Below, piece after piece: positions 12,049-38,869 of a stretch of 64,000 nucleotides of DNA. The DNA comes from Candidatus Eiseniibacteriota bacterium (GTDB taxonomy: Bacteria; Eisenbacteria; RBG-16-71-46), in contig JANYBS010000031.1 of NCBI GenBank assembly GCA_025360715.1, positions 1,708 through 65,707 of the forward strand. Reading direction: 5' to 3'. The notes under the pieces are model-generated. The model searched no databases and was not told the DNA's origin. It saw only the letters and a list, made by a program, of their open reading frames with translations. The translations under genes were made by a program, and so were the position numbers. The number at the start of each line of letters is the position of its first letter. The stretch's first letter is position 1.

Positions 12049-13092
12049 TCACAGCCCGTCGTACTTGGAGTAGCCGCGCTCGTTCCAGTAGTCCGCGGGT
12101 TCCTTGGCGGTGTACGCGATCTCGGTGATCGCCTTGATATTCTTAAGGCCCAGCTTCATCGGGACCAGCAATCGCATGGGCGCGCCGTGTTCGATGGGCA
12201 GCGGCTGGCCGCCCAGCTGCGTCGCCAGCAGTGTCTGCGGATGCCGTGCGGTCTCGAGGTCGATCGAGACGTAATAGGGATCGGGATGGCCGTGGGCATC
12301 CCGGTTGACCGCCGAACGCATCGCGGCCCACTTCGCGCCGGGTGCGGGCGGGAACGCCGCGAGGAAGTCGGCGAAGCGGATGCCGCCCCACCACGCGACG
12401 GCGCTCCAGCCCTCGACGCACACGAAACGCGTGACCTGCTCGTGCGTGGCGAAGCGCGCCAGGTCATTCACGCCCAGGCGCTCGATGCGGCCCGACGCGA
12501 GGCCCGAGATCTGCAGTTGCCACGTGGGCAGGTACGCGGGGTCCGGCGTCTGGCCATCGTAATTATTGCGCAGCGGTGTGACCTCGGATCTCGCATACGT
12601 GCGGATCGTGCGGTCTTTTGAATACAGCGCCTCGGCCACATCGTCGTCGAATGTGAGCGAGCCATCGAGCAGCTTGCCGCGGCGCTCCGAAGTGAGCCCC
12701 ACGCGCGCGGCCAGTGTATCGAGCGCGTCGTGGCCGGCCTGCAGAGGCAGGTGCGATTTGGTGCGCGACGGCAGCAGCCACCACGCGCCGAGGGCGGCGG
12801 CCGCGACGCCCGCGCCATACAACAGGAAGTCGCGGCGCGTCTGCGCGGCGAGCTTGCGGCGTGGCAGGGCGATGGCGACCTCGGGGCGCTCTTCAATGGG
12901 CGAGAGCTTGCGCGGCGCGGGTCGCGCCGGTGCCGGCGCGGGCTGCGCGGGTGGTTCTGCGGCGGCCGGTGCCTGTTCGGCCGCGGGCGCTTCCGGCACC
13001 GCGGCAGGCTCGGGCGTCACCGCCGGCGTCGCCTCCGGCGCTGCGTCAGCCGCATCCTCGCGCGGCGTGTCGTCATGCATGTCCATCGCCAT
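12049..13092 (-). CDS. msrP: Tat-exported molybdopterin oxidoreductase of the sulfite-oxidase family (MsrP/YedY-like)
   Basis: Twin-arginine motif TRRDFLLYGAGVAAAALGA. Mo-binding core FVCVEGWSAVAWWGGIRF. Preceded by an unusual ~85-aa Pro/Ala/Glu-rich N-terminal extension. Confidence 0.85.
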   Translation of the reverse strand: MAMDMHDDTPREDAADAAPEATPAVTPEPAAVPEAPAAEQAPAAAEPPAQPAPAPARPAPRKLSPIEERPEVAIALPRRKLAAQTRRDFLLYGAGVAAAALGAWWLLPSRTKSHLPLQAGHDALDTLAARVGLTSERRGKLLDGSLTFDDDVAEALYSKDRTIRTYARSEVTPLRNNYDGQTPDPAYLPTWQLQISGLASGRIERLGVNDLARFATHEQVTRFVCVEGWSAVAWWGGIRFADFLAAFPPAPGAKWAAMRSAVNRDAHGHPDPYYVSIDLETARHPQTLLATQLGGQPLPIEHGAPMRLLVPMKLGLKNIKAITEIAYTAKEPADYWNERGYSKYDGL

Positions 13093-13861
13093 CCTCCTTC
13101 ACCCGTGCGGACCAGCCCGTGATCATGGACCGAAATGTGTCGAAGCCATCGGCGATGACCAGGATCACGTGCGGCACCACGAACGTGCCGAGCACAAGCA
13201 TGCTCACGAAGTGCACGATGCGTGCGCCGTCGTAGTTCACGAACAGCCGCTCGAGCCAGCCGAGCATCGCGGGCTTGTGCATGGCCCAGCCGGAGGCCAC
13301 CACGAGCGCGCCGAAGATCGGCATGGAGAAATAGGCCGCGCGCTGCAGGGCGTTGTACTTGAACGCGATCTTCGGATGCGGATTCGGCTTGCGCAGCACC
13401 AGGCTCGGCACGGCGTTCAGGTAATAGCGCAGCATGGCCACGGCCTCGGCGGGATCGGTCCCGCGAGGCAGCAGCGCGCGCCAGCCGCCGCCGGCGGCCA
13501 AGCCCAGCGCGTAGAGCGCGCCGTTGATCATGAACAGGTACGCGAACAGCCAATGAATACTCAGCGCCGATGCCAGCGAAGACGTGCCCAGGCTGAAATG
13601 GTTGTAGATCCAGTTGCGCGGGTCGTCGTGGGTGTCGTGCAGCAATCGTGCGATGAACACGCTCACATCGCCCAAGCCATCGTGCGTGTGCGTGACCGGG
13701 TTCCACGGATGCATGAACACCGGCGCGGCCCAATAGATGCTCAGGCCCGTCACCAGCAGTCCGAACAGCAATGGGATATTCACCCAGTGGGTGATCCGCA
13801 CGAGCCCATGATGCTTGGGCACGACGCGAACGGTGTCGGTGCTCTGGGGAGCTCGGCTCAT
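13073..13861 (-). CDS. Cytochrome b561-family membrane heme protein, likely the redox partner of MsrP (MsrQ-like role)
   Basis: ATG at Met 53 of the track ORF. HWVNIPLLFGLLVTGLSIYW and several His-containing TM helices. Overlaps the msrP start by 20 nt. Confidence 0.72.
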   Translation of the reverse strand: MSRAPQSTDTVRVVPKHHGLVRITHWVNIPLLFGLLVTGLSIYWAAPVFMHPWNPVTHTHDGLGDVSVFIARLLHDTHDDPRNWIYNHFSLGTSSLASALSIHWLFAYLFMINGALYALGLAAGGGWRALLPRGTDPAEAVAMLRYYLNAVPSLVLRKPNPHPKIAFKYNALQRAAYFSMPIFGALVVASGWAMHKPAMLGWLERLFVNYDGARIVHFVSMLVLGTFVVPHVILVIADGFDTFRSMITGWSARVKEDGDGHA

Positions 13862-14166
13862 CGGCTTGTGGACCTCGCAAGGGGTGCGGCGGGTAGGACG
13901 GACGAAGGCGTTACGCGATGGGGCCGCTCGCGTGACGGAAGCCTTGCGTGCGCTTGACCTTGTGCGCGGCGCGCGGGCCGCAATATGCCACACGCCGGGG
14001 TGCCCGCGCAGCGCCAAGCGCTTCCGGCCGAGCCCGGTAATGCGCTGGCGGGCGGGGCGTCCCGGTATTATCGTGCCGCGACTGGCTTTGTACTCGAGCG
14101 ATCACTTCCGGCAGCTTGGCGCCTTCGTCGGCGGCTGCGCCGGCTCACACATATGAAGGTACGCCC

Positions 14167-21245: not shown

Positions 21246-23600
21246 ATGACCTTGATCCCGATCCAGAGCTTGCGCCGCGAGAGCGCGCTGCCGCCGCCGG
21301 TCGTCGAGTCCGTGCGTCTGCGCATCTCGGGCATGCACTGCGCGTCGTGCGTGAGCCGCGTCGAAGGCGCGCTCGCCTCGGTGCCCGGTGTGGCGCAAGC
21401 GCGCGTGAACCTAGCGACCATGCGCGCCGAGGTCGACTTAGGAACCCCTCTGGATGCGGGCGTGCTCGCCGCTGCGGTGCGCGAGGCGGGCTATGACGCG
21501 CATGTGGTCACCGCGCTTGTGGCCGATGACGCCGAGCAGCGCGAGCGCGCAGTCGAGCTTGCCGTGGTGCGCAAACGCTTCCTGCTGGCGCTCGCGTTCG
21601 GCGCGCCGGTGGTGGTGATCGCGCATCTCTCGTTGCTGCCGCTGCCTGCGGCTGCGGCAGCGCTCGTGGGCGGCACTGCGGCCGCATGGGCGCAGTGGCT
21701 GCTGGCGACGCCCGTGCAATTCATCGCGGGCCTGCCGTTCCTACGCGGCACGTGGCGCGGCATCACCAAGCGCGCGCCGGACATGGACATGCTGGTGGGC
21801 ATCGGCACCCTCGCGGCTTACGCGTATTCGGTATTCGCGCTCTTCGAGCCGTCCGCGCCGACGAGCGGCGCTGCGATGGGTGTGGGCCACGGCGCGGGGC
21901 CGGCGCTGTACTTTGATACGTCGGTCACGATCGTGTCGCTCATCCTGCTTGGCCGCCTGCTCGAGGCGGGTGCCAAATCGCGCGCGTCGCAGGCCATGCG
22001 CAAGTTGCTCGAGCTGCGCCCCAAGACGGCGCACCGCCTGCGCGCCGCAGGCGACGCACAAGGCGAGGACGTGACGCTCGACTTGGTACAGGTGGGCGAC
22101 CTGCTGCGGGTGCGCCCCGGTGAGCGCGTGCCGGTCGATGGCATTGTCATGGAGGGGCGCTCGACCGTCGACGCGTCGTTGGTCACCGGTGAGTCGCTGC
22201 CGGTCGAGGTTTCGCCCGGTGCGCGCGTGACCGGGGCGACGTTCAACCAGACCGGCGCGTTCACGCTGCGCGCGGAACACGTGGGCGCAGACAGCCAGTT
22301 GATGCGCATCGTCGCCATGGTCGAGCGCGCGCAGAGTACAAAGGCCTCGGTGCAGTCGCTGGCGGACCGGATCGCGGCGGTATTCGTGCCCGCGGTGCTC
22401 GTGGTCGCGGCGGTCACGGCCGCGTCGTGGCTGTTCGCCGGCGCGGGCATGACCACGGCGCTCATGCGCATGGTCGCCGTGCTCATCGTTGCGTGTCCGT
22501 GCGCGCTGGGCCTGGCCACGCCCACAGCGTTGATCGTGGCCACGGGCCGCGGCGCTGAACTGGGGTTGATCGTGCGCGATGCGCGCGCGCTCGAGGCGGC
22601 CGCGCGCGTGCGCACGGTCGTGTTCGACAAGACGGGCACGCTCACGCTGGGCGCGCTGCAGGTGGTGGCCGTGGTCGCTGCGCCGGGGCAGAGCGAAGAA
22701 GCCGTGCTGCTCGCAGCCGCGACCACCGAAGCGCGCAGCGAGCATCCGATCGCTCGCGCCATCATTCGTGCCGCCCGTGAGCGAGGCCAGCAGCCGCAGG
22801 CCGTGGAAGACTTCGGCGCCGCGCCGGGACGTGGCGTGTGGGCGCTGCGCGAGGGCCGCGTGATCGTGGCCGGGCGCGATGACCTGCTGGCCGAGTATGG
22901 CGCGGACGCCGCGCCGATCGCGGCGGACCGCGCGCGGCTCGAAGCGCAGGGGCGCACGGTACTCGCCGTCGCCGAGGGCGGCACGCTGCTCGGGTTGCTC
23001 GCGCTCGCGGACACCGCTCGCGCCGATGCCGCCGCCGCCGTGCGCGCCCTGCGCGCGCAGGGCTGCCGCGTGCACATGCTCACGGGCGACCGGCCGGCGA
23101 GCGCGTCGGCACTCGCGCTCGAGGTGGGAATCGAGCCGGCCAACGTGATCGCCGGCGTGCTGCCGTCCGAGAAGGCGGCGCGCATCGCGGCGCTTCGTGC
23201 GGCGGCACCGGTGGCGATGGTCGGCGATGGCATCAACGACGCGCCCGCGCTCGCGTCCGCCGATGTGGGCTTCGCGATGGCCTCTGGAACGGACATCGCC
23301 ATGGAGGCGAGTGGCTTCACGCTCGTGCGCGGCGATCTCCTGAGCGTGGTCGATGCTGTGCGGCTCTCTCGCCGCACTATGCAGGTGATCCGCCAGAATC
23401 TCTTTCTTGCCTTCGCTTACAACGTGATACTGATCCCCGTGGCGGCCGGCGTGCTGGCGCCGTTGCTCGCACCCGGCGGTGCGGTGGGCCCGGTCCTGGG
23501 CTGGCAAGGCACGTTGCATCCCATGCTGGCCTCGCTCGCCATGGCGCTCTCGAGCGTGTCGGTGGTCAGCAGTTCGGTGCGTTTGCGGGGGTTCCGCTAG
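21246..23600 (+). CDS. copA: Cu(I)/Ag(I)-exporting P1B-type ATPase
   Basis: HMA domain GMHCASC, TM CPC motif [29 protein letters not shown]. Confidence 0.92.
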
Positions 23601-23741
23601 AAGACACCCTGTCAGGGGCTTGTGATTCCTCGCGCTGCAGGCCGTCACGAGGATGACGCCGCAACGTATCTGTGCCGATAATGGTGACGCGGGGCGGTAT
23701 GCGCCCGAGTGGTGACCCGATACTTTATGGAGGTCCTCACG

Positions 23742-24149
23742 ATGTTTCGTCGTTCGGCTGCGTTGATGCGCCTGTTCGCGCTCGTGTTCGCGGTGGTGCT
23801 GCCCCTGTCGGCGGCCCATTGCCTGTTCATGGGTGCGCCCGCGCATGGCGCTACCAAGGCGATGCATCCGTGCTGCGAGAAGGCCGCAGCGCGCGCGAGC
23901 GCTGCGCACGCGAAGCACGCGCCGCTGGGCGAGCCGAAGTCCTGCTGCACGCAGCTGCCCTCCGGCGTGAACGCCGGCGTGGTCACGCTCGATGCGCCCC
24001 ATGCGAGCATCGCGACGCTCGTGCAGTTCACGGTGCTACTGGCGCCGGCGCCCGTGATGCTGCCGCGCGCCGAAGAAGGCTCCGATGACCCGCCGGGTGC
24101 GCCGCCGCATGCTGCGCATCTGTTGCGAGGTCCGCCCGCACAGGCCTGA
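23742..24149 (+). CDS. Small exported Cys/His-rich protein of unknown function in the copper-resistance cluster
   Basis: GGAGG then ATG at Met 12 of the track ORF. Signal/TM MFRRSAALMRLFALVFAVVLPLSAAHC. Motifs HPCCEKAA...HAKHAPLGEPKSCCTQLP. Confidence 0.5.
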   Translation: MFRRSAALMRLFALVFAVVLPLSAAHCLFMGAPAHGATKAMHPCCEKAAARASAAHAKHAPLGEPKSCCTQLPSGVNAGVVTLDAPHASIATLVQFTVLLAPAPVMLPRAEEGSDDPPGAPPHAAHLLRGPPAQA

Positions 24150-24251
24150 GACGCGCGCGCTGTTGGAGCGCCGTCTGTTGCCGCCGTCTGGGAATCGCGC
24201 GCCGCCGCATGCGCGCTTGAACGCACCTGCGATCCCTGTGTGGGAGAAGTC

Positions 24252-25583
24252 ATGAGTGGCCTTGGAATCGCGCGCGCGCTGCTGTGCCGCTGCGCGTTGT
24301 TGCTGATGGTCGTGGCCGCCGGGCCGGCGCGCGCCGCCGATGCGCCGCACGCGCTGGACCTGACCACGGTGCTGGCCCAGGTCGCCGCGAGCTCTCCCAT
24401 GCTGGCCGCCAGCGGCGCCATGAGCGATGCCGCGCGCGATCGCATCGCGCCCGCCGGCGCGTGGAGCGCGCCCATGCTGGAGGCCGGTGTGGTGAACGTG
24501 CCCACCACGGGGCGCTTCGACGCCGACATGATGACCATGAAGATGGTGGGCGTCGAACAAAAGGTGCCGATCTCGGGCGCGAACGCGCGTTCGCGCGCCG
24601 CCGCCACGTATGCGTATGAGGCTGCGCGCTGGAACGCGCAGCGCGACCGCATGAATGTGTTCAGCGACACGTGGCAGGCCTACGCCGACGCGTACCTGGC
24701 CGGGCTTGCTGCCGACGCCGCCGATGCCCACGACGCGGTGATGGCGCGCATGGAGGACGCCGCGCGCGCCAAGTTGGCATCGGGCCGCGGGCGCATCGGC
24801 GAGGTGCTCACCGCGCAGGCGGAGCGCGCGCGGCTGAGCGCCGACGGCGAACGCGCGCGCGCGGAGCAGCGCACGGCGCTGGCGAAGCTCGCAGCGCTGC
24901 GCGGACGCGATACGGTGGTGGCGGGCGAGACGCTCGCGCCGCCGCCCGAGTGGCTCGCGAGCGACACCACGCGCGCGTGGGACGCCGCGTACGGCGCGGC
25001 CCACCCGGCGCTGCGCGCGATGGCCGCCGGCGTGGCGCGCGATCGTGCAAGTGCCGACGCCATGCGGCGCATGCGCTGGGGCGATCTGGACGTGAAGGCA
25101 AGCTATGGCAAGCGCGAGACGCTCCAGGGCGGCATGACGCAGGACGACATGTTCAGCGCCAGTGTGGGAGTGATGCTGCCCGTGGGCTTTGGCGGCCGCG
25201 AGGGCGCACAGGCGCGCGCGATGGACGACATGGCGCGCGCAGGCGAGTCCGAGCGCCGCGCGCTGGCGCTCGATCTGCGCCAGCAGTTGATCGCCGCGCG
25301 CAACGATGCGCGCGTGAATGAGCGCCGCGTGCGCGTGCTGAGCGACACCGTGCTGGTGCTGCAGCAGCGCGCGCTGGATGCCGACTGGGGCGCGTACGCC
25401 TCGGGCAGCCTTGACCTGGCGCGCGTGCTCGACACGGCACATGCGGCCTACACGACACAGATCGAGATCCTCCGCGCCCGGCAGGACCTGGCGCACGCGC
25501 TCGCGCGCGTGCTGGCGCTTTCGGCCGACGGTTCACTGGTTGGCGTCACGCTTCCGCAGGAAGCACCAAGGAGCACACGATGA
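24252..25583 (+). CDS. TolC/CusC-family outer-membrane efflux protein
   Basis: Signal peptide; long Ala/Arg-rich helical repeats typical of outer-membrane factors. First component of a CBA operon. Confidence 0.78.
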   Translation: MSGLGIARALLCRCALLLMVVAAGPARAADAPHALDLTTVLAQVAASSPMLAASGAMSDAARDRIAPAGAWSAPMLEAGVVNVPTTGRFDADMMTMKMVGVEQKVPISGANARSRAAATYAYEAARWNAQRDRMNVFSDTWQAYADAYLAGLAADAADAHDAVMARMEDAARAKLASGRGRIGEVLTAQAERARLSADGERARAEQRTALAKLAALRGRDTVVAGETLAPPPEWLASDTTRAWDAAYGAAHPALRAMAAGVARDRASADAMRRMRWGDLDVKASYGKRETLQGGMTQDDMFSASVGVMLPVGFGGREGAQARAMDDMARAGESERRALALDLRQQLIAARNDARVNERRVRVLSDTVLVLQQRALDADWGAYASGSLDLARVLDTAHAAYTTQIEILRARQDLAHALARVLALSADGSLVGVTLPQEAPRSTR

Positions 25584-27034
25584 GTATGCCCGAGAAGGCT
25601 GTAGCGCCCGCGGGCGCTGCGTTCATGAACGTGGTGCGGTGGGCGCTGTTCGTGGGTCTGTTGCTGCTCGCCGGTGCGAGCTTGGGCCGCGTGTTCGCGC
25701 CCGGTGGTGGCGGCGCGCTGGCGCTGGGCTCGAGCAACCGCGCGGCCACCGATCATGGCAAGCCGGCGCCGCTTTATCACTGCCCCATGCATCCGAATTA
25801 TACGTCCGATCGCCCGGGCGAATGCCCGATCTGCGGCATGACGCTGGTCCGCATCGACGGCGGCGAGCACGACTCGCATGGAATCGGCTCGCACGGAATC
25901 GGCTCGCGTGACATCTCAAACGTGACCGGGCTCGTGCCCGTGCAGCTGAGCAGCGAACGCATCCAGCGCATCGGCGTGCGCACGGCGGTCGCCACCCGCT
26001 CCGCTCTGACACGCAGCGCCTCGCTCACGGGTTTCGTGACGCCCGATGAGAGCCGCATCACACGGCTCCAAGTTCGCCTCAGCGGCTGGGTGCGCAGCCT
26101 GGACGTGAACGCGGTCGGCCAGGCGGTGCGCCAGGGCCAGAGCCTGCTCACGCTCGAGAGCCCGGACCTGTTCCAAGCCGAGCAGGAGTACTTGATCGAA
26201 CTCAGCGCGGCCGAGAACCAGAGCACGGCGGCACACCTTCGCGGCGACAGCGCAATGGTCGGCATGAGCGGCGCAGGCAGCAGCATGTCGCACGAAGCGC
26301 CGGGCCGGGCCGCAGCGCGCCAGCGGCTCAAGTTGCTGGGCGTGCCCGACGACGAGGTGCGACGCCTGGAGCGAGAGCGCGTGGCGTCGTCGCGGCTCAC
26401 GTTCCGCTGTCCTGTCAATGGCGTCGTGCTCGAGCGCGGGGTGCTGAACGGCCAGGCGATCTCGCCCGACACGCCGCTGTTCGCGATCGCGGACCTCTCG
26501 CGCGTGTGGGTGCAGGCGGACCTGTTCGTGCAGGACCTGGGCGCCGTGCATGTGGGTGACCGGGTGCACTTCACAGCCGACGGTCCGGGCGGCGCACAGG
26601 CCAACGGCACCATCGAGTTCCTCACGCCCACGGTCTCGACCGAGACGCGCACGGTGCAGGCGCGGATCGCGCTCGCGAACCCGCAGGGCCGCCTGCGCCC
26701 GGGCATGTTCGGCCGCGTGAGTGTGGCGGGCAGCATGGCGAGCAGCATGGCAGGCAGCGGCGGCGCGGCGCTCACCGTGCCGAGCGAAGCCGTGGTCCAT
26801 ACGGGCGAAGAGGACTATGTGTTCCTGGCGCATGCCGGCGGCATCTTCGAGCCGCGGCGCGTCATTGCCGGCGCGGAGGATGGCGACCGGATCGCGATCG
26901 TCTCCGGCATCGCCGCGGGCGACACAGTGGTGGCGAGCGCGTCGTTCCTGATCGATTCCGAGAGCCGCCTCAAGGCGGCGATCGCCGGACTCGGCGCGCA
27001 GCCGGCCGCACACCAGCGCGGGTCTACCCGATGA
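25580..27034 (+). CDS. RND efflux membrane-fusion protein (CusB-like) with N-terminal heavy-metal-binding domain
   Basis: ATGA overlap with the upstream stop. HMBD motif YHCPMHPNYTSDRPGECPICGM. His-rich HDSHGIGSHGIGS. Beta-barrel/lipoyl MFP core. Confidence 0.85.
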   Translation: MSMPEKAVAPAGAAFMNVVRWALFVGLLLLAGASLGRVFAPGGGGALALGSSNRAATDHGKPAPLYHCPMHPNYTSDRPGECPICGMTLVRIDGGEHDSHGIGSHGIGSRDISNVTGLVPVQLSSERIQRIGVRTAVATRSALTRSASLTGFVTPDESRITRLQVRLSGWVRSLDVNAVGQAVRQGQSLLTLESPDLFQAEQEYLIELSAAENQSTAAHLRGDSAMVGMSGAGSSMSHEAPGRAAARQRLKLLGVPDDEVRRLERERVASSRLTFRCPVNGVVLERGVLNGQAISPDTPLFAIADLSRVWVQADLFVQDLGAVHVGDRVHFTADGPGGAQANGTIEFLTPTVSTETRTVQARIALANPQGRLRPGMFGRVSVAGSMASSMAGSGGAALTVPSEAVVHTGEEDYVFLAHAGGIFEPRRVIAGAEDGDRIAIVSGIAAGDTVVASASFLIDSESRLKAAIAGLGAQPAAHQRGSTR

Positions 27035-30000
27035 TGATCCCGCGCCTGATCGCCTTCTGCGCGACACGCCGCACGCTCGTGTTCGTGATCACGATACTCG
27101 CGTTCATCGGCGGGCTCGTGGCCATGCGCGCGGTGCCGCTCGATGCGCTGCCCGACCTGAGCGACCCGCAGGTGATCGTATTCACTGACTGGATGGGCCG
27201 CAGCCCCGACCTGGTCGAGGACCAGGTCACCTATCCGATCGTGAGTTCGCTGCTGGGTGCTCCCAAAGTGGTGGCGGTGCGCGGCCAGTCGATGTTCGGG
27301 ATGAGCTTCATCTACGTGATCTTTCAAGAAGGCACGGATCTCTACTGGGCGCGCAGCCGCGTGCTCGAGTACCTGAGCACGATCCGCTCACGGCTGCCTG
27401 AAGGCGTCACGCCCACACTGGGCCCCGATGCGAGCGCCGTGGGCTGGGTATTCCAATACGCGCTGGTCGACAAGAGTGGCAAGCATGACCTGGCCGAACT
27501 GCGCGCGTTCCAGGACTTCCACCTTCGCTATGCGCTCAGCAGCGTGCCCGGCGTGGCCGAGGTGGCGAGCGTGGGTGGCTATGAGCGCCAGTACCAGGTC
27601 GAGGTCGATCCCGCGCACCTGCATGCGTATGGGCTGTCGGTGGGCGATGTGACCAGCGCCATCCGCCGCAGCAATCGCGAAGTCGGCGGGCGCGTGATCG
27701 AGATGTCGGGGCGCGAGTACTTCGTGCGCGGACGCGGCTATATAAAAAGCCTCGACGACCTGCGATCGGTGGCGGTGGGCGCGGACACGCGCACGGGCAC
27801 GCCGGTGCGCGTGGGCGACATCGGCCGCGTGAGCTTCGGCCCCGACATCCGCCGCGGCGTCGCGGAACTGGATGGCGAGGGCGAGGCCGTGGGCGGCACC
27901 ATCGTGATGCGCTCGGGTGAGAACGCGCTCACGGTGATCCACCGCGTCAAGGCGAAGCTGGCCGAGCTCAAGGCCAGCCTGCCGCCGGGCGTGGAGCTGC
28001 AAGTGGTCTACGACCGCAGCTCGCTCATCGAGCGCGCCGTTCACACGCTGCGCCACACGCTTGTGGAAGAAGCGATCGTGGTGAGCCTGATCATCTTCCT
28101 GTTCCTGCTGCATTTCCGCAGCACCTTGGTGCCGGTGCTCACGCTGCCGATCGCGATCGCGCTGGCGTTCATCCCCATGAAGCTGCTGGGTATTCATTCC
28201 AATATCATGAGCCTGGGCGGGCTCGCGATCGCCATCGGCGCCATGGTCGACGCCGCCATCGTGCTGGTGGAAAACGCGCATAAACACCTGGAGACCGCGC
28301 CACCGGGCGCCGACCGCACGCAGGTGCTGATCGCTGCGGCGCAGGAGGTGGGCCCGGCGATCTTCTTCTCGCTGCTCATCATCACCGTGGCGTTCCTGCC
28401 CATCTTCGGATTGGAGGGCCAGGGCGGGAGGTTGTTCAAGCCGCTCGCGTACACCAAGACGTTCGCCATGGCGTTCGCTGCGCTGCTGTCGGTCACGCTC
28501 GCGCCGGCGCTGATGGTGGTGTTCCTCAAAGGCCGCGTGCGGCACGAGAGCGAGCATCCGGTCTCGCGCGCGCTCATGGCCGCCTACCGGCCGTTCGCGT
28601 GGGTGGCGCTGCACAACCCGCGCATGACCATTGCCATCGGCCTGGCAGCGCTGCTGTCGGCGGTGCCCATGGCCATGCACCTGGGCCACGAGTTCATGCC
28701 GCCGCTCAATGAAGGCGATTTGTTGTACATGCCCACCACGTTCCCGAACATCAGCATCGAGGAAGCGAAAAAATACCTGCAGGTGCAGGACCGCATCCTG
28801 GCCAGCTTCCCCGAGGTCGAGCGTGTGTTCGGCAAGGCGGGGCGTTCCAGTACGCCGACCGATCCCGCGCCGCTGTCGATGGTCGAGACCGTGGTCAAGC
28901 TGCGCCCGCGCGAGCAGTGGCGCGATATCGGCGTGCGCCGTTGGTACAGCGCGTGGGCGCCGGGGTGGCTCAAGCCGGCCTTGCAGCCGCTATGGCCCGA
29001 TCACCGCCGCATCTCGTGGGACGAACTCGTGGCCGAACTCGACCGCCAGGTGAGCCTGCCCGGCTGGACGAATGCGTGGACGATGCCGATCAAGACGCGC
29101 ATCGACATGCTTTCCACCGGCGTGCGCACGCCGATCGGTATCAAGGTCTTTGGCGCCGACCTGGATTCGATTGAGCGCATCGGCATGGACCTGGAGCGCA
29201 TCGTTTCGAAAGTCCCGCACACGCGCAGTGTGTACTCCGACCGTAGCACGGGCGGTTTCTACGTGGACATCGTGCCCGACCGCGCCGCGCTCGCGCGCTA
29301 TGGCCTTACGCTGGGCGAGGTGCAGGACGTGGTCGAAGCCGCGATCGGCGGGCAGCCGATCGAGACGACCGTGGAGGGTCGGCAGCGGTTCACGATCAGC
29401 GTGCGATATCCGGCGGACATGCGGCAGGACATCGGCCGGCTCAAGCAGGTGCTCGTGCCGCTGCATGGCAAGAGCGGCGGGCCGAGCGGTTCGGGCGCCG
29501 GCGATGGCATGAGCAACAACGCCGCCGCGCCGCCGCAGGTGTTGCTGGCCAGCGCGGGGCTGCTCGATATGGGCGAGAGTGCCGGTGACGACGGCATGGG
29601 CGGCGGTATGAGCGGCGGCGGCAGCGCGCCGCGCGCGCCCACGAGCGCGCCGGGCATGCGGAGCGCCGCCGCGCCGGCGCCGCGCGGCATCGCAGGCGCC
29701 GCGGCCGATCCCGGCGCCGCGAGCTTCGGCAGCGCGTTCGGCGCCACGGGCGCGCACGTTCCATTGGGCCAGATCGCCGACATCCGCATCACCAGCGGCC
29801 CGCCCATGATCCGCGATGAGGCCGGCCTGCTCACGGGCTACGTGTACGTGGACATGGACGAGCGCGGCCAGGACATCGGTGGCTATGTGGACCAGGCCAA
29901 GCGCGCGGTGGAGAAGCAGCTCAAGCTGCCGCCCGGCTACTTGCTCAAGTGGACCGGGCAATACGAATTGCTCGAGTCCATGCAGCAGCGCATGCGCGTG

Positions 30001-30540
30001 CTCGTGCCGCTCACGCTCGTGCTGGTGCTACTGCTGTTGCTCATGCAGTTCGGCAATCTGGCGCAGGCGCTGATCGTGCTCGCGTCTGTTCCTTTCGCGC
30101 TGGTGGGCAGCGTGTGGCTGCTGGCGATGCTGCACTACAACCTGTCGACCGCCGTGTGGGTGGGGTTGATCGCGCTGGTGGGGCTGGCCACGCAGACGGG
30201 CGTGGTGATGATGGTCTACTGCGACAGCGCGTATTTCCGCTGGCGCCGCGAGGGCCGCATCCGCGGGTTGGCCGACATTCTTGACGCAACCCTGGAAGGC
30301 TCTGTGCAGCGCGTGCGGCCCAAACTCATGACGGTCGCGACCATGCTGATCGGCCTGGTGCCGCTGCTGTGGTCGCAGGGTGCCGGCGCCGACGTGATGA
30401 AGCGCGTCGCGGCGCCCATGGTGGGCGGGCTGATCACGTCGGCGTTTCTCACATTGGAGATCATCCCGGTGGTGTACGCGTACTGGCGGTATTCGCAGTG
30501 GCAGCGCGAGCAGCGCCAGATCAACACGCCTTCGGCTTGA
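27031..30540 (+). CDS. Heavy-metal efflux RND transporter (CusA/CzcA family) with a ~95-aa Gly/Ser/Ala/Met-rich insertion
   Basis: 12-TM RND architecture with conserved AcrB/CusA blocks. The insertion GKSGGPSGSGAGDGMSNN...DMGESAGDDGMGGGMSGGGSAPRAP... lies between conserved VLVPLHG and HVPLGQIADIRITSGPPMIR. Confidence 0.9.
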   Translation: MMIPRLIAFCATRRTLVFVITILAFIGGLVAMRAVPLDALPDLSDPQVIVFTDWMGRSPDLVEDQVTYPIVSSLLGAPKVVAVRGQSMFGMSFIYVIFQEGTDLYWARSRVLEYLSTIRSRLPEGVTPTLGPDASAVGWVFQYALVDKSGKHDLAELRAFQDFHLRYALSSVPGVAEVASVGGYERQYQVEVDPAHLHAYGLSVGDVTSAIRRSNREVGGRVIEMSGREYFVRGRGYIKSLDDLRSVAVGADTRTGTPVRVGDIGRVSFGPDIRRGVAELDGEGEAVGGTIVMRSGENALTVIHRVKAKLAELKASLPPGVELQVVYDRSSLIERAVHTLRHTLVEEAIVVSLIIFLFLLHFRSTLVPVLTLPIAIALAFIPMKLLGIHSNIMSLGGLAIAIGAMVDAAIVLVENAHKHLETAPPGADRTQVLIAAAQEVGPAIFFSLLIITVAFLPIFGLEGQGGRLFKPLAYTKTFAMAFAALLSVTLAPALMVVFLKGRVRHESEHPVSRALMAAYRPFAWVALHNPRMTIAIGLAALLSAVPMAMHLGHEFMPPLNEGDLLYMPTTFPNISIEEAKKYLQVQDRILASFPEVERVFGKAGRSSTPTDPAPLSMVETVVKLRPREQWRDIGVRRWYSAWAPGWLKPALQPLWPDHRRISWDELVAELDRQVSLPGWTNAWTMPIKTRIDMLSTGVRTPIGIKVFGADLDSIERIGMDLERIVSKVPHTRSVYSDRSTGGFYVDIVPDRAALARYGLTLGEVQDVVEAAIGGQPIETTVEGRQRFTISVRYPADMRQDIGRLKQVLVPLHGKSGGPSGSGAGDGMSNNAAAPPQVLLASAGLLDMGESAGDDGMGGGMSGGGSAPRAPTSAPGMRSAAAPAPRGIAGAAADPGAASFGSAFGATGAHVPLGQIADIRITSGPPMIRDEAGLLTGYVYVDMDERGQDIGGYVDQAKRAVEKQLKLPPGYLLKWTGQYELLESMQQRMRVLVPLTLVLVLLLLLMQFGNLAQALIVLASVPFALVGSVWLLAMLHYNLSTAVWVGLIALVGLATQTGVVMMVYCDSAYFRWRREGRIRGLADILDATLEGSVQRVRPKLMTVATMLIGLVPLLWSQGAGADVMKRVAAPMVGGLITSAFLTLEIIPVVYAYWRYSQWQREQRQINTPSA

Positions 30541-37263: not shown

Positions 37264-37293
37264 TTGACGCTCCCCAAGGGTGGCCCCTAGACT
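37264..37293 (+). promoter_or_regulatory. Promoter-like element TTGACG-N18-TAGACT, 60 nt upstream of ATG 37354
   Basis: Shares the extended motif GGGTGGCCCCTAGaCT with the elements at 43099 and 40359. Confidence 0.4.
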
Positions 37294-37353
37294 CAGTGAC
37301 CTCACCTTGGCTCCCGGCTGCCTTGTATCCCTTTTGAGGAGAGACTCCACAAG

Positions 37354-38790
37354 ATGAAGTCCCTCGTGACCCGACTGACTGCCGCTCTGCTGGCGCTCGT
37401 GGCCGTCGTCCTGCTCGCTGGCGCTGCCGCGAAGAGCGCGACGATCGCTTCGCCCGACAAGCTCGTCATCCTCTCCACGACCGACGTGAAGGGGAAGACG
37501 AGCCCTTGTGGCTGACACACGCCCAAAGGTGGCCTCGCCCGGCGGGCGAGCTTCGCGGACAGTCTCAAAGCGCAGTACGGCCAGGTCGCTCTGGTCGACA
37601 ATGGTGGGTTCTTCCCCGAACTCGAGGACTATCAGGACGTCGCCTGGTTCCTGATGGACTCGATGAAGCTCCTTGGCATCGACGCGATCGGCGTCAGTGA
37701 GAAGGAGTTGCGCTGGGGCAAGAGCTTCCTCATGGCCAACTACAAGCGCACGCAGGCTCCGCTCGTGTGCGCGAACCTGTACGACAAGGCGACCAAGAAG
37801 ACGCTGGTGGCCCCGTACCTCATCAAGAAGATCGGCGCGGTCAATGTTGGATTCTTCGGCCTGACCAGCGACAAAGTGGACATGGGGATCTCGCGTGATT
37901 CGCTCACGGTGGAAGACCCGTCGGTCGCCGCCAAGCGCACGGTCGAGGAGATGCACAAGAAAGGCGCGACGGTCGTCGTGCTGCTGTCGATGCTGGGCAA
38001 GGTCGAAGCCGAGGACCTGGTCAGCTCGGTGGATGGCATCGACGTCGTGATCGTGGGACGCAACACGCCGCTGCTGCAGAAGGGCCGGCTGATCAAGAAC
38101 ACGATCGCCTGCTACGGCGGTGAGCAGGGTCAGTACATCGGGCGCACGCTGGTGTCGCTCGATGCGGGCAAGAAGATGACCACGGGCGAGAACGATACGT
38201 ACATCCTTGGCCCCGAAGTCGGCGAGAAGCCCGAAGTGCTCACCCTGGTGAAGAGCTTCGAAGACAACTTCAACGACAAGCTGCGCAAGGCCGAGAAGGC
38301 CCGCGCCGCCAAGGCCGAGATCGACAAGGCCAACGGTGGAACGGGCACGACCGAGCAGGCGGTGGACCACTATCTGGGCGCCGAGCTCTGCCAGCGTTGT
38401 CACGCCGAAGAGTACAAGCAGTGGCAGGGAACGGGGCACGCAGGCGCATGGCAGACACTCGTCACCCAGAAGAAGGAAGCGACTCCCGACTGCATCCCGT
38501 GCCACGTGCTCGGGTACAAGCAGTCGGGCGGCTTCCAGACGGGCGACGATGCGCCGCGGTTGGCGAACGTCCAGTGCGAGAGCTGCCACGGCATGGGCAC
38601 GACGCACGAGTCGTATCCGGCGCAGACGAAGCGGATCACGGAGGCAACCTGCAAGGGCTGCCACACGATCAGCAACAGCCCGGCGTTCGACTTCGCGATC
38701 TACGAGCCGCATATCCTGCATCACCCGCCGGCCTCGATGCCGCCCCTGCCGCCGAATCCGGCGAAGCAGAAGATGATGGGCGGACACTGA
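37354..38790 (+). CDS. Degenerate 5'-nucleotidase-like domain fused to a tetraheme cytochrome c domain, containing in-frame UGA (candidate selenocysteine) at codon 54
   Basis: GAGGAGAG RBS plus ATG 37354, then signal peptide MKSLVTRLTAALLALVAVVLLAGAAA. In-frame TGA at 37513-37515 in SPCG-TGA-HTPKGG, where paralog 38870..40315 has TGC (Cys). Same frame as track ORF 37654..38790 with no other stop. Four CxxCH motifs: CQRCH, CIPCH, CESCH, CKGCH. Confidence 0.6.
37513..37550 (+). other. In-frame UGA plus downstream hairpin (candidate bacterial SECIS)
   Basis: TGA at 37513-37515. Stem CTCGCCC (37534-37540), loop GGC, stem GGGCGAG (37544-37550); loop G is ~26 nt from the UGA. The small 3-nt loop makes this a weak structural match. 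Confidence 0.35.
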
Positions 38791-38869
38791 CGGCTGTTCC
38801 ATGCGACCAAGAGGGCTCCGGACCGGGCGCACCGGTCCGGAGCCATTTCGTTTCCGGGAGAGGGCTTTC

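What the first reader, a model, noticed from the sequence alone, without database searches (positions are those of the whole stretch)
37354..38790. In-frame UGA at a conserved Cys codon: candidate selenoprotein with a tandem Cys-paralog
Two adjacent paralogous genes, 37354..38790 and 38870..40315, encode the same architecture. Each has a signal peptide, a 5'-nucleotidase-like domain and a C-terminal tetraheme cytochrome c domain with four CxxCH motifs.

Around residue 54 the two align almost exactly. Copy 1 reads ILSTTDVKGKTSPCG-*-HTPKGGLARRA. Copy 2 reads VLSTTDVKGKTSPCG-C-HTPKGGLARRA. The codon is TGA at 37513-37515 in copy 1 and TGC in copy 2.

Upstream of the TGA, copy 1 has a proper RBS (GAGGAGAG), an ATG and a signal peptide. 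Downstream, the frame stays open for 425 codons with strong conservation to copy 2 and no other lesions. This argues against a decayed pseudogene. A Sec/Cys paralog pair with UGA replacing Cys is the classic signature of selenocysteine recoding.

A 7-bp GC hairpin with a G-containing loop starts 19 nt after the UGA. It is a possible but weak SECIS.

The Sec would sit next to another Cys (C-G-U), which resembles redox-active vicinal C-X-C and C-U centres.
Basis: partly seen in the sequence, partly recalled or inferred. Interest (0 to 1): 0.92.

Follow-up and report, generated by a model that had tools for sequence, protein, structure and literature searches.

The report
Known UshA-like heme selenoprotein gene
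The in-frame TGA is a genuine, widely conserved selenocysteine codon in a periplasmic heme protein, but the protein family (the "UshA-like PCGU" selenoproteins) has been published since 2008 and has a curated model, so this is a correct call of a known kind.

Summary
Gene 37354..38790 has one in-frame TGA (37513-37515). It aligns to TGC (39035-39037) in the 57%-identical tandem paralog 38870..40315.

It is neither an error nor gene decay. Two independent assemblies of a ~98% related strain carry the same TGA. In 80 loci from species-representative genomes, mostly Candidatus Eisenbacteria MAGs, this codon is TGA 64 times and TGC/TGT 34 times.

All 61 distinct Sec genes keep a 17-nt hairpin, CTSGCCC-GGC-GGGCSAG (37534-37550 here). 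One pair is compensatory at synonymous sites (C:G 39, G:C 21, none broken). Cys paralogs encode the same L-A-R-R-A with free codons and no hairpin. This behaves as a bacterial SECIS.

The family is already known: NCBIfam NF041198 "UshA_like_PCGU, UshA-like (seleno)protein" (273.9 bits, cutoff 275, both domains matched), and the COG0737 CxU selenoproteins of Zhang & Gladyshev 2008.

The N-domain has a 5'-nucleotidase fold but has lost all dimetal ligands except one Asp. The C-domain is a c554-like tetraheme cytochrome. The likely function is a periplasmic Cys/Sec-heme redox enzyme; the substrate is unknown.

Sec-machinery genes could not be checked beyond about 1 Mb. I rate it a new member of a known kind, with modest interest.

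The parts
37264..37293 (+). Sigma-70-like promoter candidate (TTGACG-18-TAGACT) upstream of the Sec gene.
   Evidence: Consensus scan only: 1 site found against 0.3 expected. This is weak evidence.
37336..37343 (+). Shine-Dalgarno-like GAGGAGAG ahead of the ATG at 37354.
   Evidence: Read directly. The GGAGAG core is kept in the related strain.
37354..38790 (+). Selenoprotein gene (copy 1): 478 residues including Sec54. It consists of a signal peptide, a UshA-like domain and a tetraheme cytochrome c domain, and its own stop codon is TGA.
   Evidence: NF041198, 273.9 bits. Orthologs with the same TGA occur at 64 places in 80 loci.
37354..37437 (+). Predicted Sec-pathway signal peptide (MKSLVTRLTAALLALVAVVLLAGAAAKS...). 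It lies upstream of the UGA.
   Evidence: By inspection (basic n-region, hydrophobic core, AxA-like site); no predictor was run. Export is required for c-type heme attachment (established knowledge). The UGA must therefore be read through for the heme domain to mature.
37504..37518 (+). Active-site motif P-C-G-U-H. The Sec codon TGA is at 37513-37515.
   Evidence: P53, C54, G55 and C56 are invariant in 44 Cys-form homologs. His is Ser in 10 of 99 Cys forms.
37521..37533 (+). Possible small 5' stem (GCCC/CCCC - AAR(GG) - GGGG/GGGC) between the UGA and the SECIS hairpin. It is weak in this window, which has GGT at codon +5.
   Evidence: Codon +3 is CCC in 61/61 Sec genes. Codon +5 is GGG in 55/61 Sec genes, against GGC in 29/34 Cys genes. 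Cells are 82-83% paired, the register is ambiguous and there is no compensatory pair.
37534..37550 (+). SECIS hairpin: 7-bp stem CUCGCCC/GGGCGAG with a GGC loop. The loop starts 25 nt after the UGA.
   Evidence: 100% of cells are paired in 54 distinct sequences. Pair 27-39 is C:G in 33 and G:C in 21, with none broken. RNAalifold predicts the same helix. Codons +8, +9 and +10 have zero synonymous variation. The hairpin is absent in Cys paralogs, with mean dG -4.0 against -11.6 kcal/mol.
37459..38253 (+). UshA/5'-nucleotidase-fold N-domain with a degenerate dimetal site.
   Evidence: Evidence comes from NCBIfam, a PDB profile search (2z1a, E = 2e-24) and Foldseek (CD73 and 2z1a, TM about 0.5). 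Ligand motifs are replaced: DxH to DVK, GD to GG, GNHE to SEKE/GERD, SH to SM/SQ, GHSH to GRNT/GRDV (and direct reading).
38353..38688 (+). Cytochrome c554-like tetraheme domain with four CxxCH motifs.
   Evidence: PF13435 at 61.6 bits against a cutoff of 20.8. PDB 1bvb cytochrome c554 at E = 3e-15.
38814..38844 (+). Terminator-like hairpin (13 bp, 11 G:C) followed by ATTTCGTTTC, lying between the two paralogs.
   Evidence: It suggests that the Sec and Cys genes can be transcribed separately; this is an inference.
38870..40315 (+). Cys paralog (copy 2), 481 residues, with TGC at 39035-39037 in P-C-G-C-H. It has the same architecture as copy 1.
   Evidence: NF041198, 268.1 bits. It has no SECIS hairpin.

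Best explanation
Gene 37354..38790 is a functional selenoprotein gene. It belongs to the UshA-like 'PCGU' (seleno)protein family in the broad sense, as its Candidatus Eisenbacteria-type branch.

Decoding. UGA-54 is decoded as selenocysteine. A 17-nt hairpin (37534-37550, GGC loop) lies 18 nt downstream of the UGA inside the coding sequence. It is inferred to recruit SelB-GTP-Sec-tRNA(Sec) while the ribosome sits on the UGA, as bacterial SECIS elements do.

Product. The full-length product is exported by its N-terminal signal peptide and receives four c-type hemes in the periplasm.

Catalytic unit (inferred). The N-domain keeps the 5'-nucleotidase/metallophosphatase fold but has lost the dimetal ligands. 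In their place, a loop directly after the first beta-strand carries C-G-U(-H). The most likely reading is a Cys/Sec selenenylsulfide-type redox centre that exchanges electrons with the tetraheme c554-like domain. That would make the protein a periplasmic oxidoreductase acting on a small sulfur, selenium or other thiophilic substrate.

Paralog (inferred). The adjacent Cys paralog is an old duplicate, separated by a terminator-like hairpin. It probably provides a selenium-independent isoform.

Shown: the TGA, its conservation, the hairpin and its covariation, the fold, the loss of ligands and the heme motifs.

Inferred: SelB binding, the redox chemistry, the substrate and the back-up role of the paralog.
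For: (1) The same codon is TGA in 64 and TGC/TGT in 34 of 98 homologs across 80 species-level genome loci.

(2) A ~98% related strain in a JGI metagenome and in a Logan assembly has the identical TGA and hairpin. Differences upstream of the TGA are mostly synonymous.

(3) In the Sec genes, only 4 of 95 conserved columns of four- to six-fold degenerate amino acids have zero codon entropy. All four lie at codons +3, +8, +9 and +10 after the UGA. Codons +7 and +11 vary only as a coupled pair, CTC/GCG or CTG/GCC.

(4) The hairpin is 100% paired and has a compensatory pair. On the NJ tree the G:C variant occupies at least three separate clades, with one apparent reversal.

(5) Cys paralogs encode the same residues without the hairpin.

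(6) UGA is the ordinary stop in this genome: 19 of 25 genes end in TGA, including this one. A reassigned genetic code is therefore excluded.

(7) The signal peptide lies upstream of the UGA and the heme domain downstream.

(8) NF041198 'UshA_like_PCGU' matches both domains, at 273.9 and 268.1 bits against a cutoff of 275. The C-terminal part alone scores 139 bits on profile positions 346-518.

(9) The family is published as a CxU selenoprotein family (PMC2398784, PMC9312934, PMC13188914).

(10) The fold and the loss of ligands are shown.
Against: - No selA, selB, selD or tRNA-Sec was found in the window or in the 80 loci, about 1 Mb in total. The rest of the genome could not be searched, so the decoding machinery is assumed.
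- In this sequence alone the hairpin region does not fold better than shuffled controls (z = -0.48), and the MFE structure uses a shifted register.
- There is only one covarying pair.
- The whole-protein score is 1.1 bits below the NF041198 cutoff.
- The active-site loop is modelled with pLDDT below 50, so its geometry relative to the hemes is unknown.
- No experiment exists for any member of the family that I could find. The function is inference.
- Neighbourhood conservation looks like inherited synteny rather than functional linkage.
Confidence: 0.88

Rival explanations
1. Sequencing error or recent pseudogene: a TGC-to-TGA change killed copy 1, and copy 2 carries the function.
For: A single nucleotide separates TGA from TGC, and an intact Cys paralog sits next door.
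Against: - The same TGA occurs in 64 homologs from different species-level genomes and in two independent assemblies of a near-identical strain.
- The frame is open, with high GC3 (0.83) on both sides of the TGA.
- There are no other lesions.
- Sec genes form an old, nearly monophyletic clade under purifying selection.
Confidence: 0.01
2. UGA is a true stop. The locus would then encode a 53-residue peptide plus an N-truncated protein started at an internal Met (37654), which is how public gene callers annotate it.
For: Gene callers produce exactly this: a 53-aa ORF plus a 378-aa ORF. 21 of the 120 best database homologs are N-truncated in this way.
Against: - The truncated product would lack the signal peptide needed for c-heme attachment, and also the conserved D46 and P-C-G motif.
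- The 53 upstream codons are conserved at protein level across the phylum, up to and across the TGA.
- The internal start differs between genomes: MKAQYGQ..., MDSLK..., VKAQ..., MDSMK....
- RNA-level selection is centred just downstream of the UGA.
Confidence: 0.03
3. UGA is read through, but not as selenocysteine. A near-cognate or suppressor tRNA would insert Trp, Cys, Gly or Arg, with the hairpin acting as a generic read-through stimulator.
For: The Sec machinery was not found in the sequence available. Downstream structures can stimulate stop-codon read-through in other systems (general knowledge).
Against: - The position alternates only with Cys (TGC/TGT) in 34 homologs, which is the signature of Sec/Cys exchange.
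- The family is curated and published as a selenoprotein family with exactly this motif.
- The size, loop G content and distance of the hairpin fit the spacing I recall for published bacterial SECIS models: apical loop 16-37 nt from the UGA, with G in the loop.
Confidence: 0.04
4. C-G-U-H is an aberrant heme-attachment motif (CxCH-like) carrying a fifth, seleno-linked heme, not a free redox dyad.
For: It resembles CxxCH superficially. His follows the second Cys/Sec in about 90% of sequences.
Against: - His is replaced by Ser in 10 of 99 Cys-form homologs, whereas the His of all four CxxCH motifs is invariant.
- I know of no CxCH heme c site (own knowledge), and the spacing is one residue short for the standard maturation system.
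- The motif sits in the phosphatase-fold domain, not in the cytochrome domain.
Confidence: 0.03

Closest known systems
NCBIfam NF041198 'UshA_like_PCGU', UshA-like (seleno)protein; the same family as the COG0737 'UshA-like' CxU selenoproteins of Zhang & Gladyshev 2008 (PMC2398784)
   Same: - Identical P-C-G-U/C motif just after the signal peptide.
- The same UshA-like N-domain, matching profile positions 3-274.
- The same C-terminal tetraheme region, matching profile positions 346-518 at 139 bits.
- Mixed Sec and Cys members.
   Different: - The whole-protein score is just under the curated cutoff: 273.9 and 268.1 against 275. Relatives range from 236 to 287 bits.
- Profile positions about 275-345 are not matched, and this protein is about 40 residues shorter than the model.
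- This branch is from Candidatus Eisenbacteria MAGs, whereas the reviews cite single RefSeq proteins as examples.
Periplasmic 5'-nucleotidase / UDP-sugar hydrolase UshA and CD73 (metallophosphoesterase superfamily)
   Same: The N-domain fold is shared: Foldseek E about 1e-21 and TM about 0.5, and profile E = 2e-24 to 2z1a. Both are periplasmic.
   Different: - All dimetal ligands except the first Asp are replaced.
- There is no C-terminal nucleotide-binding domain; a tetraheme cytochrome takes its place.
- It is therefore very unlikely to be a phosphoesterase.
SoxB thiosulfohydrolase (TIGR04486), a 5'-nucleotidase-fold enzyme of sulfur oxidation
   Same: Distant homology of the N-domain (53-79 bits). 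Both are periplasmic, and SoxB works alongside c-type cytochromes in sulfur chemistry (established knowledge).
   Different: - It scores far below the SoxB cutoff of 550 bits.
- SoxB uses a di-manganese site, which is lost here.
- SoxB has no Sec and no fused hemes.
Bacterial SECIS elements (E. coli fdhF type)
   Same: It is a hairpin inside the coding region, downstream of the UGA, with a G-containing apical loop. It is 17 nt long, which I recall as about the size of the minimal fdhF upper stem-loop (own knowledge).
   Different: - The spacer is 18 nt, not about 11 nt.
- There is no bulged U and no conserved lower stem.
- A second small stem may occupy the spacer.
- No Rfam family matches.
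Vicinal Cys/Sec redox centres (thioredoxin reductase GCUG, ferredoxin-thioredoxin reductase CxU) and the U-H dyad of formate dehydrogenase H
   Same: A Cys one residue away from the Sec could form a selenenylsulfide. A His immediately follows the Sec, as in FdhH (own knowledge; the CxU families are listed).
   Different: The fold is unrelated. There is no flavin, Fe-S cluster or molybdopterin. The electron partner here is a fused tetraheme domain.

Membership tests
NCBIfam NF041198 UshA_like_PCGU (UshA-like (seleno)protein) | P-C-G-U (or P-C-G-C) motif near the N-terminus | tested here: met
   Copy 1 has PCG*H at residues 51-55 and copy 2 has PCGCH at residues 53-57.
NCBIfam NF041198 UshA_like_PCGU (UshA-like (seleno)protein) | UshA-like N-terminal domain aligned to the front half of the profile | tested here: met
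   Residues 16-276 match profile positions 3-274 of 519.
NCBIfam NF041198 UshA_like_PCGU (UshA-like (seleno)protein) | C-terminal part of the profile, the multiheme region | tested here: met
   The C-terminal 214 residues alone match profile positions 346-518 at 139.2 bits.
NCBIfam NF041198 UshA_like_PCGU (UshA-like (seleno)protein) | Whole-protein score at or above the curated cutoff of 275 bits | tested here: not met
   Copy 1 (with U scored as C) reaches 273.9 bits and copy 2 reaches 268.1 bits. Ten relatives score 236-287 bits and 4 of them pass. This is a borderline branch of the same family, not a formal equivalog hit.
Bacterial selenoprotein gene (Sec-UGA recoding) | In-frame UGA aligned with Cys in homologs | tested here: met
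   64 TGA against 34 TGC/TGT at the same column.
Bacterial selenoprotein gene (Sec-UGA recoding) | Conserved stem-loop (SECIS) shortly downstream of the UGA, under RNA-level selection | tested here: met
   The hairpin is 100% paired with one compensatory pair. Synonymous sites are frozen in Sec genes only.
Bacterial selenoprotein gene (Sec-UGA recoding) | selA, selB, selD and tRNA-Sec present in the same genome | not testable with these tools
   They are absent from the 64-kb window and from the 80 loci.
Bacterial selenoprotein gene (Sec-UGA recoding) | Selenium physically present in the protein | not testable with these tools
   This needs 75Se labelling or mass spectrometry.
Active 5'-nucleotidase / metallophosphoesterase | Dimetal ligand motifs DxH, GD, GNH(E/D), H and GH | tested here: not met
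   In the alignment to 2z1a, DtH becomes DvK, GD becomes GG, GNHE becomes GERE (SEKE in copy 1), SH becomes SQ/SM, and GHSH becomes GRNV (GRNT in copy 1).
Active 5'-nucleotidase / metallophosphoesterase | C-terminal 5'-nucleotidase substrate-binding domain | tested here: not met
   Pfam reports only cytochrome families for the C-terminal third, with no 5'-nucleotidase C-terminal domain hit.
SoxB thiosulfohydrolase (TIGR04486) | Score at or above 550 bits | tested here: not met
   53-58 bits.
Cytochrome c554-type multiheme domain (PF13435) | Pfam gathering score and CxxCH heme motifs | tested here: met
   61.6 and 64.4 bits against a cutoff of 20.8. There are four CxxCH motifs, and all Cys and His are invariant in 44 homologs.

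The most novel reading that the evidence does not exclude
The family's chemistry may be new. A metallophosphatase fold has lost its metals and acquired a C-G-U(-H) selenol/thiol centre. This centre would be wired to four c-type hemes, making an undescribed type of periplasmic selenoenzyme, for example an oxidoreductase for sulfur or selenium compounds or for thiophilic metals. It is close to universal, and ancient, in the phylum Candidatus Eisenbacteria. Its SECIS may be two-part: a spacer mini-stem plus the 17-nt hairpin. No member has been characterised experimentally in the literature I could search.
Probability: 0.3. Interest if true: 0.6.

Novelty: new member of a known kind. Interest (0 to 1): 0.3.

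Why it matters
Practical value. Public gene calls split these genes into a 53-residue ORF and an N-truncated "hypothetical protein". 21 of the 120 best database homologs are truncated this way. The correct annotation restores a signal peptide, the active-site motif and a selenocysteine.

Taxonomic value. It indicates that Candidatus Eisenbacteria, an uncultured soil and groundwater phylum, decode UGA as Sec. I found no paper in the searchable library that mentions this phylum together with selenocysteine.

Methodological value. The Sec/Cys paralog sets give a clean natural control. They show RNA-level selection for a SECIS embedded in an amino-acid stretch that is conserved either way.

Open question. 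The function of the UshA-like PCGU family is unknown. The loss of the dimetal ligands together with the fused tetraheme domain gives a concrete redox hypothesis to test.

Tried and rejected
- Rfam at gathering thresholds on the whole window, and at E up to 10 on 37480-37620, found no SECIS, tRNA-Sec or other RNA family.
- ARAGORN found no tRNA in the window. In the 80 loci it found only tRNA-Leu, tRNA-Pro and tRNA-Ala.
- tblastn with E. coli SelA, SelB and SelD (taken from NC_000913.3) against the window plus loci gave no hit at E below 1e-3.
- Single-sequence folding of the region is not better than shuffles. I therefore dropped thermodynamics as evidence and used comparative data.
- Two registers were tested for a 5' mini-stem. 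Neither has a compensatory pair, so I kept it only as a possibility.
- Neighbourhood as a clue to function: CBS/CGL, the zincin-TPR gene, the S9 peptidase and a CopA-like ATPase are syntenic across the phylum. Cys-only paralogs elsewhere in the genomes lack them, so I treat the association as inherited synteny.
- I considered and rejected the heme-attachment reading of C-G-U-H, because His is replaced by Ser in 10 of 99 Cys forms.
- A megablast against E. coli genomes was pointless and found nothing.
- An exact look-up of the neighbouring cystathionine gamma-lyase-like protein, meant to identify the source record, found nothing.
- The Haft 2023 and 2025 selenoprotein papers are not in the held library.
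- No held paper mentions Eisenbacteria together with selenocysteine; a broader four-term search listed no Eisenbacteria paper among its top hits.
Full report
**Observation**

The frame starting at ATG 37354 runs to TGA 38788-38790 and contains a single internal stop, TGA at 37513-37515 (codon 54), in the context KTSPCG*HTPKGGLARRA. The next gene, 38870..40315, reads KTSPCGCHTPKGGLARRA, with TGC at 39035-39037. The two products are 57% identical over 465 residues.

Each has four CxxCH motifs and a Pfam cytochrome c554 domain. GC3 is 0.83 on both sides of the TGA. The GC3-based scan flagged three in-frame TGAs; I read the other two as a gene's own stop (21186) and a site opposite a minus-strand gene (56615), so 37513 is the only convincing one. 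UGA is otherwise the ordinary stop codon here: 19 of 25 confident genes, including this one, end in TGA.

**Not an error and not decay**

The public protein P0116 is 373/378 identical to the ORF downstream of the TGA. It occurs in a JGI metagenome (3300045919) and in a Logan assembly (SRR35489358). In both, the DNA upstream has the same TGA and the same downstream sequence, and gene callers report a 53-residue ORF followed by a 378-residue ORF.

A scan of one genome per species (GTDB representatives) returned 80 loci, mostly Candidatus Eisenbacteria MAGs. Translating all frames found 98 homologous genes. The aligned codon is TGA in 64 of them, TGC in 28 and TGT in 6.

In a neighbour-joining tree the Sec genes form one large clade with a few Cys genes nested inside. 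Copy 1 is 72-78% identical to its closest orthologs but only 57% identical to its own neighbour. The Sec/Cys duplication is therefore old. Sec-plus-Cys arrangements recur: in tandem in L001-L003 and L007, and flanking two intervening genes in about ten loci.

**The SECIS**

All 61 distinct Sec genes carry CTSGCCC-GGC-GGGCSAG starting 21 nt after the T of TGA. In the window this lies at 37534-37550.

- On an alignment of 60 sequences (54 distinct), every cell of the seven pairs is a standard pair. Pair 27-39 is C:G in 33 distinct sequences and G:C in 21, with no broken intermediates.
- RNAalifold finds the same helix independently.
- The covarying positions are the third bases of Leu(+7) and Ala(+11): CTC with GCG (39), CTG with GCC (21).
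- On the NJ tree the G:C state sits in at least three separate clades, with one apparent reversal.
- Across the whole gene there are 95 columns with a conserved four- to six-fold degenerate amino acid. Only four have zero codon entropy, and all four lie just after the UGA: Pro+3 CCC, Ala+8 GCC, Arg+9 CGG and Arg+10 CGG.
- The Cys paralogs encode the same G-L-A-R-R-A with freely varying codons and no hairpin. Mean dG of the 17-mer is -4.0 against -11.6 kcal/mol.

This contrast is the strongest evidence that the structure is selected only when UGA has to be recoded.

Two caveats apply. In this window alone the region does not fold better than shuffled sequence (z = -0.48). No Rfam family matches it.

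A second, smaller stem may lie in the 18-nt spacer (CCC-AAR-GGG). Gly+5 is GGG in 55/61 Sec genes but GGC in 29/34 Cys genes. However, there is no compensatory pair and the register is ambiguous.

**What the protein is**

NCBIfam gives one strong hit: NF041198 "UshA_like_PCGU, UshA-like (seleno)protein". Copy 1 (with U scored as C) reaches 273.9 bits and copy 2 reaches 268.1 bits, against a curated cutoff of 275. The N-domain matches profile positions 3-274, and the C-terminal heme region alone matches positions 346-518 at 139 bits. The curated family therefore has the same two-domain architecture and the very motif found here.

Ten relatives score 236-287 bits and four of them pass the cutoff. 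This is a borderline branch of the same family.

The literature lists "COG0737, UshA-like" with motif CxU among the selenoprotein families of the Global Ocean Sampling data (76 selenoprotein sequences in the GOS table, PMC2398784). Two later reviews list it under COG0737 or NF041198. I found no experimental work on it.

**Structure and active site**

An AlphaFold2 model of the Cys paralog has mean pLDDT 82.4. The N-domain is mostly above 90, but the loop GKTSPCGCHTPK (residues 49-60) is below 50.

Foldseek places the N-domain with CD73, UshA and Thermus 5'-nucleotidase (E about 1e-21, TM about 0.5). A profile search of PDB sequences gives 2z1a at E = 2e-24 and cytochrome c554 (1bvb) at E = 3e-15 for residues 334-414.

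In the alignment to 2z1a the metal-ligand motifs are replaced: DtH by DvK, GD by GG, GNHE by GERE (SEKE in copy 1), SH by SQ/SM, and GHSH by GRNV/GRNT (and direct reading). Only the first Asp (D46 in copy 2) is invariant. The P-C-G-C/U segment lies directly after that Asp, in the loop that in true nucleotidases leads away from the dimetal site.

The His after the Sec is Ser in 10 of 99 Cys forms. This argues against a heme-binding CxCH reading.

**Mechanism proposed**

Shown: the gene must be read through UGA to join the signal peptide (upstream) to the heme domain (downstream). C-type heme attachment needs export (established knowledge).

Inferred:
- SelB-Sec-tRNA(Sec) is recruited by the 17-nt hairpin.
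- The mature periplasmic protein uses a Cys52/Sec54 selenenylsulfide-type centre, in the former phosphatase pocket, that exchanges electrons with four c-hemes.
- The substrate is probably a small sulfur, selenium or thiophilic compound. The only homology hint is the distant relation to SoxB (53-79 bits).
- The Cys paralog lies behind a 13-bp terminator-like hairpin at 38814-38844. It probably serves as a selenium-independent isoform.

**Context**

The window contains no sel genes. The order CopA-like ATPase ... zincin-TPR - (S9 peptidase) - SEC - (cys) - cystathionine beta-synthase-like - cystathionine gamma-lyase-like - (cys) - DUF4097 - bactofilin is conserved across the phylum. Cys-only paralogs at other genomic places lack these neighbours. 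I therefore read the association as inherited synteny, a weak functional hint at best.

**Verdict**

Novelty is low, because the family, motif and architecture are already curated. What is new is modest:
- a phylum-wide Eisenbacteria branch;
- a well-supported SECIS with a natural Cys-paralog control;
- explicit documentation that the phosphatase ligands are lost.

The main untested link is the presence of the Sec machinery in these genomes.

Noticed in passing
window 40349-43047: A cystathionine beta-synthase-like gene (PALP + CBS domains) and a cystathionine gamma-lyase/synthase-like gene (Cys_Met_Meta_PP) follow the paralog pair directly. They are adjacent to the Sec gene in 55 and 51 of 80 loci. 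In about ten loci a Cys paralog sits after them (SEC-CBS-CGL-cys). This is probably inherited synteny, but a link to sulfur metabolism is not excluded.
   Followed up: partly
window 21246-30540: A heavy-metal efflux cluster: a CopA-like P-type ATPase with an HMA domain (21246-23600), then a CusCBA-like OEP / HlyD-with-HMBD / AcrB-family RND pump (24240-30540). The ATPase gene is syntenic with the Sec gene in 30 loci.
   Followed up: partly
window 38814-38844: A strong terminator-like hairpin (13 bp, 11 G:C, then ATTTCGTTTC) lies between the Sec gene and the Cys paralog. It suggests separate transcription or regulation of the two isoforms.
   Followed up: no
public proteins P0031, P0055, P0058, P0059, P0065, P0116 and others; L083 2701-4137: 21 of the 120 best database homologs are N-truncated gene calls that start at the first ATG/GTG after the TGA. 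Several are named 'hypothetical protein'. In L083 and L084 the upstream 53-residue ORF is called as a separate gene. This is systematic mis-annotation of the selenoprotein.
   Followed up: yes
L072:6163 and L004:7603: Both are apparent frameshifts just after the motif, in assemblies whose contig names suggest long-read data. L072 has one base missing in the G-run before the hairpin. The Cys copy in L004 reads HTPKGGLRASRG. These are probably homopolymer assembly errors, not pseudogenes.
   Followed up: no
L026, L030, L032, L036, L053, L060: These contigs have the typical Eisenbacteria synteny and about 70% identical Sec genes. The MAGs they belong to are labelled Methylomirabilota, Terriglobales, Saccharimonadaceae, Udaeobacter and Limnocylindria. 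Binning contamination is more likely than horizontal transfer.
   Followed up: no
L039 3670/5117/6157 and L057 3679/5126/6148: These loci carry three tandem paralogs (cys, cys, SEC). The first Cys copy (L039_3670, L057_3679) groups inside the Sec clade in the NJ tree, which suggests recent Sec-to-Cys conversion after duplication. The middle copy was not in the tree.
   Followed up: partly
window 37525-37530 (codons +4 and +5 after the UGA) and homologs: The Gly codon at +5 is GGG in 55/61 Sec genes but GGC in 29/34 Cys genes, and Pro+3 is CCC in 61/61 Sec genes. This fits an extra small stem or a G-rich element in the SECIS spacer. The window itself has GGT, so the stem is weaker here.
   Followed up: partly
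window 12049-14017 (minus strand): An MsrP/YedY-like molybdopterin oxidoreductase and a cytochrome b561 (MsrQ/YedZ-like) pair. This is another periplasmic redox system, unrelated to the finding.
   Followed up: no
alignment A2 columns 2-5 with 51-54 (window 37511-37514 with 37560-37563): RNAalifold also pairs GYUG, which includes the U and G of the UGA, with CAGY of the conserved Asp-Ser codons. This would enclose the whole element. There is no compensatory change, and the same codons occur in Cys genes, so it is unsupported.
   Followed up: no
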